From: Escherichia virus TH47
Length of the DNA: 64,000 nucleotides
Reading direction: 5' to 3' (one strand)
Sequence record: MT446416.1
The notes below the pieces were generated by a model that ran no database searches, was not told where the DNA came from, and worked only from the letters and a program-made list of their open reading frames with translations. Shown in pieces: positions 62,456 to 62,783 of this stretch. Numbering within the stretch: position 1 is the stretch's first letter; each line of letters starts with the position of its first letter. Position numbers and translations under genes: made by a program.

Positions 62456-62618
62456 TATTTTAACCTCATTATAAAAATACTATATTACTGTAATGCTACA
62501 ATAATACTACTAGTACTAATCTTATTCAAACCACATGATACTACATATCCACCAGCATTACCACGGATAGTAACGCCTTTGTACTGTCTATATAAATTCA
62601 ACTGCGTTTATTGCCTTT

Positions 62619-62688
62619 GATCAAGAATTGATCAGAATTATACGCCTTATGCTAAATTGATCCAGTACTTTTTGATCATTTATTGATC
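62619..62688. promoter_or_regulatory. cluster of five GATC sites interleaved with two TATAAT boxes
   Basis: GATC at 62619, 62630, 62659, 62674, 62685, all as TTGATC(A/C), in 70 bp of the long leader upstream of the TraR-like gene. Confidence 0.45.
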
Positions 62689-62783
62689 AATATTATACAG
62701 TTACATTTGTGCACCCTATGGGTTGGTGACGTTCTCGTCTTGATGTAAGTATTATGCCAGTACTGGATGATATTGTCAATAGA

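What the first reader, a model, noticed from the sequence alone, without database searches (positions are those of the whole stretch)
62590..62780. Dense GATC cluster interleaved with TATAAT boxes upstream of the TraR/DksA-like gene
Five GATC sites lie in 70 bp (about 20-fold over expectation), all as TTGATC(A/C), directly downstream of two TATAAT hexamers in a roughly 300 bp leader that also holds a partial copy of the GCACCCxxTGGG element. The window encodes a Dam-family methyltransferase (16196-16720). This could be a methylation-sensitive promoter or operator, iterons for a DNA-binding protein, or an origin-like element.
Basis: partly seen in the sequence, partly recalled or inferred. Interest (0 to 1): 0.6.

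Follow-up and report, generated by a model that had tools for sequence, protein, structure and literature searches.

The report
Paired host Fis sites built from GATC
The dense GATC cluster is real and conserved, but it is best read as two textbook binding sites for the host DNA-bending protein Fis on the promoter of a tiny, dispensable early gene in a jumbo coliphage, which makes it an ordinary kind of regulatory element with a possible methylation twist.

Summary
Five GATC sites lie at 62619-62688. No other place in the window has this density, and neither does a whole 350-kb related genome.

The window is an Asteriusvirus (121Q/PBECO4-type) jumbo phage, and the cluster lies inside its ~21-kb terminal repeat. 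Genes here are on the minus strand.

The cluster belongs to a 329-bp cassette flanked by an 11-bp direct repeat. Some close relatives lack the whole cassette, so it is dispensable.

The GATCs come in pairs exactly 11 bp apart, and each pair reads GATCA-N5-TGATC. That matches the 15-bp Fis consensus GNTYAAAWTTTRANC in every hallmark. The upstream pair sits 51-52 bp before the predicted start of the proximal promoter in three diverged lineages, including an Erwinia phage. Substitutions between lineages spare the Fis-critical positions, and one of them destroys a GATC while keeping the Fis hallmarks.

The same 18-mer recurs next to DnaA boxes in Pseudomonadales, which to my knowledge lack Dam. 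This argues against a purely methylation-based reading.

Best reading: Fis-controlled promoter, perhaps gated by Dam methylation as I recall for the IS50 inside end. The origin, pac-site and iteron readings are poorly supported. This is a new member of a known kind, of modest interest.

The parts
62674..62688 (-). Fis-like site 1 ('pair 1'). It reads GATCAATAAATGATC on the minus strand and spans GATC sites 62674 and 62685. Its centre lies about -51 from the predicted +1 of the proximal promoter.
   Evidence: It is the only strict match to GNTYA-W5-TRANC in the 64-kb window. The core is invariant in 10 Asteriusvirus sequences and present in Erwinia phage Hallingskeid.
62619..62633 (-). Fis-like site 2 ('pair 2'). 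It reads GATCAATTCTTGATC on the minus strand and spans GATC sites 62619 and 62630. Its centre lies about +4 from the predicted +1 of the proximal promoter.
   Evidence: It meets all the Fis hallmarks except for one C in the A/T centre. It is homologous to Hallingskeid pair 2. In PBECO4-type phages it is relocated to about -36.
62659..62664 (-). Third, single GATC, inside the hexamer TGGATC. This is the predicted -35 of the proximal promoter P2, with a 16-bp spacer. PBECO4-type phages have TTGATC here.
62637..62642 (-). TATAAT number 2, the predicted -10 of the proximal promoter P2 of the small ORF.
   Evidence: It is invariant in all Asteriusvirus copies.
62692..62697 (-). TATAAT number 1. It has no usable -35. 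It is TATAAC in Turkey5 and TAAAAT in Hallingskeid, and it forms the 3' end of the repeated leader element.
62702..62724 (-). Partial copy of the repeated leader element (AACCCATAGGGTGCACAAATGTA).
   Evidence: The family gives 446 matching places in 115 phage records.
62751..62779 (-). Distal sigma-70-type promoter of the cassette (TTGACA-17-CATAAT).
   Evidence: It scores 11 of 12 consensus positions in the promoter scan. It aligns with the promoter position of the other cassette copies.
62485..62601 (-). Small ORF of 38 aa with a TTG start. It is 48 aa in relatives; here a TAC-to-TAA change truncates it. This is the gene directly served by the cluster.
   Evidence: It matches phrog_38664 at E = 1e-22. 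Homologues occur in Hallingskeid, CBB, GAP32 and BF.
62454..62793 (.). Insertion/deletion cassette. It is bounded by the 11-bp direct repeat ATTATTTTAAC, with copies at 62454-62464 and 62783-62793. One repeat plus the insert is 329 bp.
   Evidence: phAPEC6 and ECO103 4-12-1 demonstrably lack it, with a single copy of the repeat at the junction. ph0011 and UE-S1 show the same split-match pattern.
62198..62455 (-). TraR/DksA-type C4 zinc-finger gene. It lies downstream of the cassette and is probably co-transcribed with it.
   Evidence: PF01258 at 2.6e-10; NF008243.
62784..62981 (-). Upstream 65-aa gene (phrog_36844). Its stop codon lies in the distal copy of the direct repeat.
16196..16720 (-). 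Phage N6-adenine methyltransferase of the PF05869 'Dam' family. Its sequence specificity was not established here.
   Evidence: PF05869 at 3.5e-33. TIGR01712 scores 95.3 bits against a cutoff of 97.05.

Best explanation
The cluster is a pair of high-affinity binding sites for the host nucleoid protein Fis. They are laid over the proximal promoter of a small accessory early gene.

Shown from sequence:
- Each pair of GATCs 11 bp apart forms a 15-bp core, GATCA-W5-TGATC.
- That core has the boundary G at -7 and C at +7, the pyrimidine-purine steps at positions +/-3-4, and the A/T-rich centre that Fis requires.

Inferred mechanism:
- A Fis dimer bound at site 1, centred about -51/-52, bends the DNA. 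It helps RNA polymerase use a promoter with a perfect -10 (TATAAT) but a poor -35 (TGGATC or TTGATC).
- The second site lies at about +4 in 121Q-type phages, -36 in PBECO4-type phages and -9 in Hallingskeid. It overlaps the core promoter and would dampen or shut the promoter at high Fis occupancy.
- Expression of the small ORF, and read-through into the DksA/TraR-like gene, would then track host growth state, because Fis is abundant only in rapidly growing cells.

More speculative:
- All four half-sites are realised as GATC, although the consensus would allow many other sequences.
- Dam methylation, by the host or by the phage PF05869 enzyme, may therefore gate Fis binding. I recall this being reported for the identically built Fis site GATCAGATCTTGATC at the IS50 inside end.
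- That would make the promoter sensitive to the methylation or replication state of the phage DNA.
For: 1. Match to the motif. The Fis motif is GNTYAAAWTTTRANC (PMC6907758 Table 2). Its hallmarks are G/C at +/-7, an A/T centre, Y-R steps at +/-3-4, no T at +4, and T/A at +/-8 (PMC4784862). Site 1 is the only strict GNTYA-W5-TRANC match in 64 kb, where 0.7 is expected. Only 3 strict matches occur in a 350-kb related genome. Site 2 fails only by one C in the centre.

2. Fixed spacing. The 11-bp spacing holds in all six pairs of the three lineages, while the spacing between pairs varies.

3. Pattern of substitutions.
- T to C at position -8 in 121Q-type phages.
- AA to TG at +8/+9 in PBECO4-type phages.
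- A/T/G changes in the centre.
- In Turkey5, GATC became GTTC at site 2. This destroys the Dam site but keeps T+3, G+4 and C+7.

4. Conserved position. The centre of site 1 lies at -51/-52 from the predicted +1 in window-type, PBECO4-type and Hallingskeid copies, although the sequence in between cannot be aligned.

5. Occurrence outside the phages.
- The same 18-mer, TGATCAANAAATGATCAA, recurs in Pseudomonas, Marinobacter, Acinetobacter and Endozoicomonas.
- 45 of the 120 loci have a perfect DnaA box within 400 bp. Two lie in the dnaA-rpmH spacer.
- To my knowledge these bacteria have Fis but lack Dam.
- Fis sites are known in E. coli oriC and DARS2 (PMC8488378).

6. Uniqueness. TGATCAA-N4-TGATCAA is absent from the whole cassette-less genome.

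7. IS50 precedent. The IS50L inside-end sequence containing GATCAGATCTTGATC was confirmed next to aph(3')-IIa in plasmids.
Against: - No binding or expression data exist. The promoter and its start site are predictions only, and the scan tool did not list P2 because its -35 scores 3 of 6.
- The Fis consensus is degenerate, and A/T-rich phage DNA produces many weak look-alikes (35 relaxed matches per window).
- A centre at -51/-52 is not a classic Fis activation position. From memory, rrn P1 uses -71 and proP P2 uses -41.
- The exclusive use of GATC in every half-site, and the consistent GATCAA orientation, are not explained by Fis alone.
- The Pseudomonadales loci could be a single homologous origin element that matches by coincidence.
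- The statement that Dam blocks Fis binding at IS50 is recalled (Weinreich and Reznikoff 1992). It could not be retrieved.
Confidence: 0.5

Rival explanations
1. A pure Dam/SeqA switch. The GATC pairs are read as methylation marks. After replication, SeqA dimers bind the hemimethylated pairs, which lie one helical turn apart. Alternatively, methylation directly alters recognition of the -35 and +1 regions. Either way the promoter would be on or off according to the replication state of the phage DNA.
For: - The pairs are spaced within one helical turn on the same face, the geometry SeqA prefers (PMC2691817).
- A GATC lies in the predicted -35 and others at the predicted start.
- The phage carries a PF05869 methyltransferase.
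- GATC is otherwise depleted in the genome.
- GATC cores at sites 1-3 are invariant in Asteriusvirus.
Against: - SeqA and Dam need only GATC. They do not need the conserved A after the first GATC, the T before the second, or the A/T centre.
- Turkey5 has lost one GATC while keeping the Fis hallmarks.
- Metagenomic recombinants carry only 3 GATC.
- The identical 18-mer is conserved in Pseudomonadales, which to my knowledge lack Dam.
Confidence: 0.15
2. An origin-like element. One version is a T4-type origin: an early promoter whose transcript forms an R-loop in an easily unwound, repeat-bearing stretch, as in oriE, oriF and oriG. The other is a DnaA-type unwinding element with GATC-led 13-mer-like repeats.
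For: - T4 oriE combines an early promoter, evenly spaced direct repeats and small early genes. T4 origins are individually dispensable (PMC3016281).
- These phages are reported to encode T4 replisome homologues (PMC5259590).
- The same heptamer pair sits between an A/T-rich stretch and DnaA boxes in Pseudomonadales origin-like regions.
Against: - There is no TTWTNCACA box within 8 kb, and the window total is at chance level.
- Cumulative GC skew across the terminal repeat shows no inflection at the locus.
- The cassette is absent from viable relatives.
- The bacterial matches are equally well explained as Fis sites within origins.
Confidence: 0.1
3. Operators for a phage-encoded sequence-specific protein that recognises TGATCAA direct repeats. 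The candidate is the small ORF product itself, acting in autoregulation.
For: - Cluster and small ORF travel together in two genera and in different genomic contexts.
- All sites share the GATCAA orientation.
- The motif pair occurs nowhere else in a related genome.
Against: - Homologues of the small ORF in CBB, GAP32, BF and pEa_SNUABM_19 have no such repeats upstream.
- No DNA-binding fold or family was detected. The structure model had pLDDT 56.7. The PDB profile search and the 1.8-billion-protein search gave nothing.
- The flanking T and AA vary between lineages.
Confidence: 0.1
4. A P1-pac-like packaging recognition site built from methylatable TGATCA hexamers.
For: P1 pac consists of seven TGATCA/G hexamers that carry Dam sites and are under methylation control (PMC10028697). 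Four of the five sites here are TGATCA.
Against: - The genome has fixed ~21-kb direct terminal repeats, confirmed by restriction mapping in fEgEco12 (PMC13070987).
- The cluster lies about 11-12 kb inside the repeat, not at an end.
- There is no 4+3 arrangement around a cleavage region.
- The cassette is dispensable.
Confidence: 0.02
5. No function. The cluster would be a product of local 11-bp duplications in A/T-rich spacer DNA, or RNA hairpins formed by the self-complementary UGAUCA repeats in the 5' leader.
For: - The two modules, GTATAAT-N2-TGATCAAT-N3-TGATCAAA, look like a duplication.
- Each pair can fold into a 7-bp hairpin.
Against: - Pairs are conserved across genera amid unalignable sequence.
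- The position relative to the promoter is conserved.
- The fold z-score is only -1.4.
- Hairpin-closing pairs are broken without compensation in 121Q-type and PBECO4-type phages.
Confidence: 0.08

Closest known systems
Fis-binding site at the inside end of IS50 (Tn5)
   Same: It has the same 15-bp build, GATCA-N5-TGATC (GATCAGATCTTGATC), with Dam sites in both half-sites. The sequence was confirmed next to aph(3')-IIa. From memory (Weinreich and Reznikoff 1992), Fis binds it well only when it is unmethylated.
   Different: The IS50 site overlaps a transposon end and modulates transposition. The phage sites lie on a promoter, come as two sites, and have an A/T centre closer to the optimum. The methylation effect was not tested here.
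Fis-regulated promoters (rrnB P1, tyrT, proP P2, and the fis promoter itself)
   Same: They have consensus Fis sites upstream of, or overlapping, a sigma-70 promoter with a suboptimal element. They link expression to growth phase (general knowledge; PMC4784862).
   Different: The predicted activating site is centred at about -51/-52 rather than -71 or -41. The setting is a lytic jumbo phage's accessory early gene inside a terminal repeat.
Dam-sensitive promoters and GATC clusters read by SeqA, OxyR or Lrp (IS10 pIN, dnaA P2, oriC, Mu mom, agn43, opvAB)
   Same: They are clustered GATCs on promoter elements. The same-face spacing suits SeqA (PMC2691817).
   Different: Here, conservation extends beyond GATC in exactly the way Fis requires. 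One lineage has lost a GATC without losing the Fis core.
P1 pac site
   Same: It is built from repeated TGATCA/G hexamers that carry Dam sites.
   Different: This cluster is not at a packaging end, has a different arrangement and is dispensable. The phage has fixed terminal repeats and presumably a T4-type terminase (not examined here).
PeSL regulatory cassettes of T4-type phages
   Same: The cluster sits in a promoter-bearing intergenic cassette. That cassette is gained, lost and recombined between close relatives in a hyperplastic early region (PMC4122927).
   Different: The shared repeat family here is a different sequence. The insertion/deletion junction is an 11-bp microhomology rather than the repeat itself.

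Membership tests
Fis-binding site | 15-bp core bounded by G at -7 and C at +7. | tested here: met
   Both window cores, and all cores in PBECO4-type phages and Hallingskeid, meet it. The criterion is from PMC4784862.
Fis-binding site | A/T-rich centre, positions -2 to +2. | tested here: met
   Site 1 has ATAAA. Site 2 has ATTCT, with one C. Hallingskeid has AGAAA and ATAAT, and PBECO4 has AAAAA and ATACT.
Fis-binding site | Pyrimidine-purine steps at +/-3-4, no A at -4 and no T at +4. | tested here: met
   C-A at -4/-3 and T-G at +3/+4 occur in every core, including the Turkey5 variant that lost its GATC.
Fis-binding site | Match to the optimal sequence GNTYAAAWTTTRANC. | tested here: met
   Site 1 matches GNTYA-W5-TRANC and is the only such match in 64 kb. 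The deviations are A/T swaps in the centre.
Fis-binding site | Nanomolar binding and bending by Fis, and a Fis-dependent effect in vivo. | not testable with these tools
   This needs a gel-shift or footprint assay and fis mutant hosts.
Dam/SeqA-controlled GATC cluster | Two or more GATC sites on the same helical face within about 1-3 turns. | tested here: met
   There are two pairs at 11 bp. The SeqA spacing preference is from PMC2691817.
Dam/SeqA-controlled GATC cluster | Conservation limited to GATC itself. | tested here: not met
   The adjacent A and T and the A/T centre are also conserved. One GATC is lost in Turkey5 and two in recombinant contigs.
Dam/SeqA-controlled GATC cluster | The sites are methylated, and their state changes protein binding or transcription. 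| not testable with these tools
   A PF05869 methyltransferase is present, but its specificity is unknown.
DnaA-dependent origin (oriC-like) | Cluster of DnaA boxes next to an A/T-rich unwinding element. | tested here: not met
   The nearest TTWTNCACA box is at 53735. The 13 boxes in the window match the chance expectation of 14.
DnaA-dependent origin (oriC-like) | Strand-composition switch at the site. | tested here: not met
   Cumulative GC skew is monotonic across the terminal repeat of vB_Ec-M-J.
T4-type origin (oriE/oriF-like) | A promoter followed by an unwinding element or evenly spaced repeats, with replication starting there. | tested here: inconclusive
   Promoters and an A/T-rich repeat stretch are present. 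Initiation cannot be tested, and the cassette is absent in relatives.
P1 pac-type packaging site | Seven TGATCA/G hexamers, arranged 4+3 around the cleavage point, located at the packaging start. | tested here: not met
   There are five sites in a 2+1+2 arrangement. The locus is about 11-12 kb inside a fixed 21-kb terminal repeat.
Iteron or operator array of a phage-encoded protein | Repeats co-occur with the gene of their binding protein across relatives. | tested here: not met
   Four other phages in two other genera (CBB, GAP32, BF, pEa_SNUABM_19) carry the small ORF without the repeats. No DNA-binding fold was detected.

The most novel reading that the evidence does not exclude
The two Fis sites are deliberately written in GATC. 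The promoter would then integrate two host signals: growth state, through Fis abundance, and the methylation or replication state of the incoming phage DNA, through Dam or the phage's own PF05869 enzyme blocking or permitting Fis. That would be an epigenetically gated Fis switch in a strictly lytic jumbo phage. It would time a small host-takeover gene and the DksA/TraR-like RNA-polymerase factor behind it.
Probability: 0.2. Interest if true: 0.55.

Novelty: new member of a known kind. Interest (0 to 1): 0.35.

Why it matters
If correct, a jumbo coliphage borrows the host's growth-phase regulator Fis to control an accessory early gene inside its terminal repeat. That would give a first concrete handle on how the dozens of tiny terminal-repeat genes of Rak2/121Q-like phages are regulated.

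It also provides a clean natural test case for whether Dam methylation can gate Fis binding. The sites are built entirely from GATC, natural variants have lost individual GATCs, and sister phages lack the whole cassette.

Practically, the result warns that GATC clusters in A/T-rich phage DNA should be checked against the Fis consensus before they are read as methylation switches or origins.

Tried and rejected
- Rfam scan of 56-64 kb: nothing relevant.
- RNA fold of the leader: z = -1.4. A consensus fold of the repeated leader element gave a 7-bp stem with no covariation.
- Small ORF function:
  - The Pfam search gave no hit, and PHROGs placed it only in an uncharacterised family, phrog_38664.
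  - The homologue search found one cluster.
  - The search of 1.8 billion representatives returned only the ORF itself plus a spurious repeat match in a VPS13-like protein.
  - The AlphaFold model had pLDDT 56.7, too poor for a fold search.
  - A PDB profile search gave only insignificant matches (E 0.5 or worse).
- Pattern scans for the cluster in IMG/VR and metagenomes returned only 121Q itself, two recombinant Asteriusvirus contigs and two unrelated contigs.
- IHF, FNR and OxyR consensus sequences were compared by eye and do not fit.
- Low-affinity DnaA sites (GGATCA-type 9-mers spaced by 2 bp, from memory) resemble the heptamers at 5-6 of 9 positions. No anchoring high-affinity box exists.
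- + strand promoters using TTGATC as a -35: none were found.
- Literature searches found no description of promoters, methylation or this motif in Asteriusvirus.
- The primary papers on Fis at IS50 and on the Fis consensus could not be retrieved.

Full report
**What the window is**

A 1-kb query around the finding matches 36 jumbo phages of the genus Asteriusvirus (121Q, PBECO4 and relatives, about 350 kb) at 89-95% identity.

In vB_Ec-M-J the homologous stretch lies at about 12.0-12.4 kb inside the annotated direct terminal repeat, which spans 1-21525. A repeat of about 21 kb was confirmed by PhageTerm and restriction mapping for fEgEco12 (PMC13070987).

All genes around the finding are on the minus strand.

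**The observation**

- GATC starts at 62619, 62630, 62659, 62674 and 62685. The window holds 123 GATC against 194 expected from composition.
- No other 70-bp stretch has more than three. I downloaded a complete relative, ECO103 4-12-1, in seven pieces. It never exceeds three GATC per 70 or 100 bp, and it has only two adjacent GATC pairs spaced 10-11 bp in 350 kb.
- At the observed density, 0.0015 such clusters are expected per window. Only 2 of 300 dinucleotide-preserving shuffles reach five, and those shuffles carry more GATC than the real sequence.
- Four of the five sites are TGATCAA, against 7 of the other 118 GATCs.
- The two TATAAT hexamers (62697-62692 and 62642-62637, minus strand) and the partial GCACCCxxTGGG copy (62711-62722) are present.
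- The methyltransferase at 16196-16720 (minus strand) is a PF05869 family member.

The 328-bp intergenic stretch between the 65-aa gene (62981-62784) and the TraR/DksA-like gene (62455-62198) is an insertion/deletion cassette.

- In phAPEC6 the two genes abut, with the stop codon overlapping the start codon (TAATG). ECO103 lacks the same stretch. ph0011 and UE-S1 show the same split-match pattern.
- The cassette is bounded by the 11-bp direct repeat GTTAAAATAAT (minus strand; copies at 62454-62464 and 62783-62793).
- ECO103 differs from the window by 13 insertions or deletions of at least 60 bp in 64 kb, so the region is plastic.

Read on the minus strand, the cassette holds these features in order:
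1. A good sigma-70 promoter, TTGACA-17-CATAAT, at 62779-62751.
2. A partial copy of a repeated leader element.
3. TATAAT number 1.
4. Two GATCs 11 bp apart.
5. A single GATC inside TGGATC.
6. After 16 bp, TATAAT number 2.
7. Two more GATCs 11 bp apart.
8. A small ORF (62601-62485).

That ORF is annotated as a 48-aa protein in 121Q (gp293) and belongs to phrog_38664. In the window a TAC-to-TAA change shortens it to 38 aa. Homologues exist in Erwinia phage Hallingskeid, Pectobacterium phage CBB (unannotated there), Cronobacter phage GAP32, Serratia phage BF and Erwinia phage pEa_SNUABM_19. So the gene directly downstream of the cluster is this ORF, not the DksA-like gene.

**Comparative footprint**

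The alignment covers ten Asteriusvirus copies and the Hallingskeid copy. The 5' half of the cassette is nearly identical in all Asteriusvirus copies. The 3' half falls into two alleles about 60% identical.

| Lineage | GATC arrangement |
|---|---|
| 121Q-type | 2+1+2 |
| PBECO4-type | Four GATCs with spacings 11, 5, 11, all upstream of TATAAT number 2 |
| Hallingskeid | Spacings 11, 32, 11, upstream of its homologue of the small ORF, next to an HNH endonuclease gene |
| Two metagenomic contigs | Recombinants with only three GATCs |
| Turkey5 | Lost the fifth GATC |

Every lineage keeps pairs exactly 11 bp apart, six of six pairs, while the distance between pairs varies.

CBB, GAP32, BF and pEa_SNUABM_19 carry the small ORF with no GATC cluster upstream. 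TGATCAA-N4-TGATCAA occurs nowhere in the cassette-less genome.

**The turning point**

I scanned bacterial genomes for the exact pair-1 sequence, TGATCAANAAATGATCAA. The scan returned more than 120 loci, with a strong excess in Pseudomonas, Marinobacter, Acinetobacter, Endozoicomonas and other Pseudomonadales.

- In these loci the motif sits between an A/T-rich stretch and DnaA boxes.
- 45 of the 120 loci have a perfect DnaA box within 400 bp. Two lie in the dnaA-rpmH spacer.
- To my knowledge these bacteria lack Dam. The pair therefore has a function that does not depend on methylation.

Reading each pair as one 15-bp unit gives GATCA-W5-TGATC. The Fis motif is GNTYAAAWTTTRANC (PMC6907758). 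Its structural hallmarks are G at -7 and C at +7, an A/T-rich centre, pyrimidine-purine steps at +/-3-4, no T at +4, and T/A at +/-8 (PMC4784862).

- Site 1 (62688-62674, GATCAATAAATGATC) meets all of these. It is the only strict GNTYA-W5-TRANC match in the 64-kb window, where 0.7 is expected. There are three strict matches in the 350-kb relative.
- Site 2 (62633-62619, GATCAATTCTTGATC) fails only by one C in the centre.
- The PBECO4-type and Hallingskeid pairs behave the same way.

**What the Fis reading explains that GATC alone does not**

- It explains the invariant 11-bp spacing, because G-7 and C+7 are the outer bases of two GATCs whose starts are 11 bp apart.
- It explains the conserved A after the first GATC and the conserved T before the second, which form the Y-R steps.
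- It explains the A/T spacer.
- It explains where the substitutions fall:
  - at -8 in 121Q-type phages;
  - at +8/+9 in PBECO4-type phages;
  - in the centre.
- The Turkey5 change (GATC to GTTC) removes a Dam site but keeps T+3, G+4 and C+7.
- Fis sites are known within E. coli oriC and DARS2 (PMC8488378). That accounts for the bacterial matches without invoking an origin function in the phage.

**Geometry**

I took +1 as 7 nt after the proximal -10. The centre of site 1 then lies at -51 (window), -52 (121Q, Turkey5, PBECO4) and -52 (Hallingskeid), even though the sequence between site and promoter cannot be aligned between genera.

The proximal promoter has a perfect -10 but a weak -35 (TGGATC or TTGATC), which is typical of activator-dependent promoters. 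The second site overlaps the core promoter at +4, -36 or -9, depending on the lineage.

I therefore infer that site 1 activates and site 2 modulates or represses. Both inferences are untested.

**The methylation question**

The consensus leaves N and Y free, so GATC is only one of about eight ways to write a half-site. Yet all four half-sites in each lineage are GATC. That excess suggests a second layer of selection.

The IS50 inside end carries GATCAGATCTTGATC, the same build. I confirmed the sequence at 100% identity next to aph(3')-IIa in plasmids. From memory (Weinreich and Reznikoff 1992), Fis binds it only when it is unmethylated. I could not retrieve that paper.

The phage encodes a PF05869 methyltransferase, and to my knowledge its hosts have Dam. 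A Dam-gated Fis site is therefore plausible but unproven. A pure SeqA/Dam switch is weakened by the flank conservation, by the GATC losses and by the Pseudomonadales matches, although the spacing does suit SeqA (PMC2691817).

**Other rivals**

- Origin. There is no DnaA box within 8 kb and no skew inflection, and the cassette is dispensable. A T4 oriE-like origin (early promoter, spaced repeats and small genes; PMC3016281) cannot be excluded by sequence.
- P1 pac. It shares the TGATCA hexamers (PMC10028697). However, the phage has fixed ends 11-12 kb away, and the arrangement differs.
- Autoregulation by the small ORF. This lacks support. Homologues in other genera have no such repeats upstream, and no DNA-binding fold could be detected.
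- RNA hairpins. They are possible because TGATCA is self-complementary. But the closing pairs are broken without compensation in two lineages.

**Verdict**

The cluster is real, unique in the genome and under selection. It is most likely a pair of host Fis sites controlling an accessory early promoter, possibly with a Dam overlay.

That makes it a new member of a known kind of element. No description of it was found in the literature searched. Interest is modest unless the methylation gating proves real.

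Noticed in passing
window 56835, 58888, 60690, 61590, 62549, 63058 (CCACCAGC on +); L001 (vB_Ec-M-J terminal repeat): The Chi sequence GCTGGTGG is strongly enriched on the gene-sense strand of the terminal repeat. There are six copies in about 6.3 kb of the window, against about 0.2 expected per 64 kb. In the vB_Ec-M-J stretch examined (L001) there are nine in this orientation and two in the opposite one. One copy lies inside the small ORF of the cassette. This orientation would be active for RecBCD entering from the right genome end.
   Followed up: partly
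window minus strand around 56889, 57993, 60717; partial copy at 62702-62782: A repeated regulatory cassette of about 90 bp. It has a sigma-70 promoter embedded in a hairpin (AAAGGGATTGACTCCGGTAAGTCCCTTTGCTATTATA). This is followed by a leader, CATAGAAACAA..CTAACCCACnGGGTGCATAAATGTATC, and a -10-like TAWWAT at a fixed 10-nt distance. The Hallingskeid copy matches 446 places in 115 jumbo-phage records across several genera. It may be a tandem early/middle promoter, analogous to the T4 PeSL. No RNA covariation was found.
   Followed up: partly
window e.g. 63250-63290 and 63600-63640 (minus strand): The early promoters here carry AGTACT boxes that flank the -35 and abut the -10 (cAGTACTaTTGACA-N9-AGTACTgTATAAT). 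The same boxes occur within the cassette, at CCAGTACTGG and AAAGTACTGG.
   Followed up: no
L036-L107 and others (genome-contig hits), e.g. L066 4240-4440, L122 800-1100: The exact 18-mer TGATCAA(A/T)AAATGATCAA is conserved in Pseudomonas, Marinobacter, Acinetobacter, Endozoicomonas and related genomes. It lies between an A/T-rich stretch and clustered DnaA boxes, and in two MAGs it lies in the dnaA-rpmH spacer. It looks like a conserved consensus Fis site of Pseudomonadales-type origin regions. Most of these loci are not next to dnaA.
   Followed up: partly
L009 1370-1455 (IMGVR_UViG_3300047550_001834): A GC-rich viral contig carries a tandem array (TTGATCAAAAAATGATCAnG, about 3.5 copies, 8 GATC in about 90 bp). 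The array is followed by GATATAAT and lies about 600 bp upstream of a T4-type large terminase ORF. It reads as four phased consensus Fis-like sites in front of a promoter, or possibly a pac-like site.
   Followed up: partly
L010 1440-1641 (Pectobacterium phage CBB, inside its terminal repeat): The CBB homologue of the small ORF (49 aa) is not annotated. It is preceded by a perfect 13-bp inverted repeat, AGTACTCGCATAG-N20-CTATGCGAGTACT, that covers its ATG. This suggests a different control of the same gene.
   Followed up: no
L026 and L027 (metagenome contigs OERM01000014.1, OERD01000139.1): Natural recombinants join the 121Q-type 5' half of the cassette to the PBECO4-type 3' half, with the breakpoint at GATCAATTT. 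They have only three GATC sites.
   Followed up: yes
window 61775-62165 and 63324-63578: ECO103 4-12-1 lacks the neighbouring GNAT acetyltransferase gene and another small gene. This adds to 13 insertions or deletions of at least 60 bp across the window, so the region is hyperplastic.
   Followed up: partly
window 53,000-64,000 versus the rest; L001, L007, L025: GATC density is about 2-3 times higher inside the terminal repeat (3.5-5.6 per kb) than genome-wide (1.7 per kb). The genome as a whole is depleted in GATC relative to its composition.
   Followed up: no
ECO103 4-12-1 genome, position about 238121 (L018): A second strict consensus Fis-like site built from two GATCs (GATCAAAATATGATC) exists elsewhere in the Asteriusvirus genome. 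Its context was not examined.
   Followed up: no
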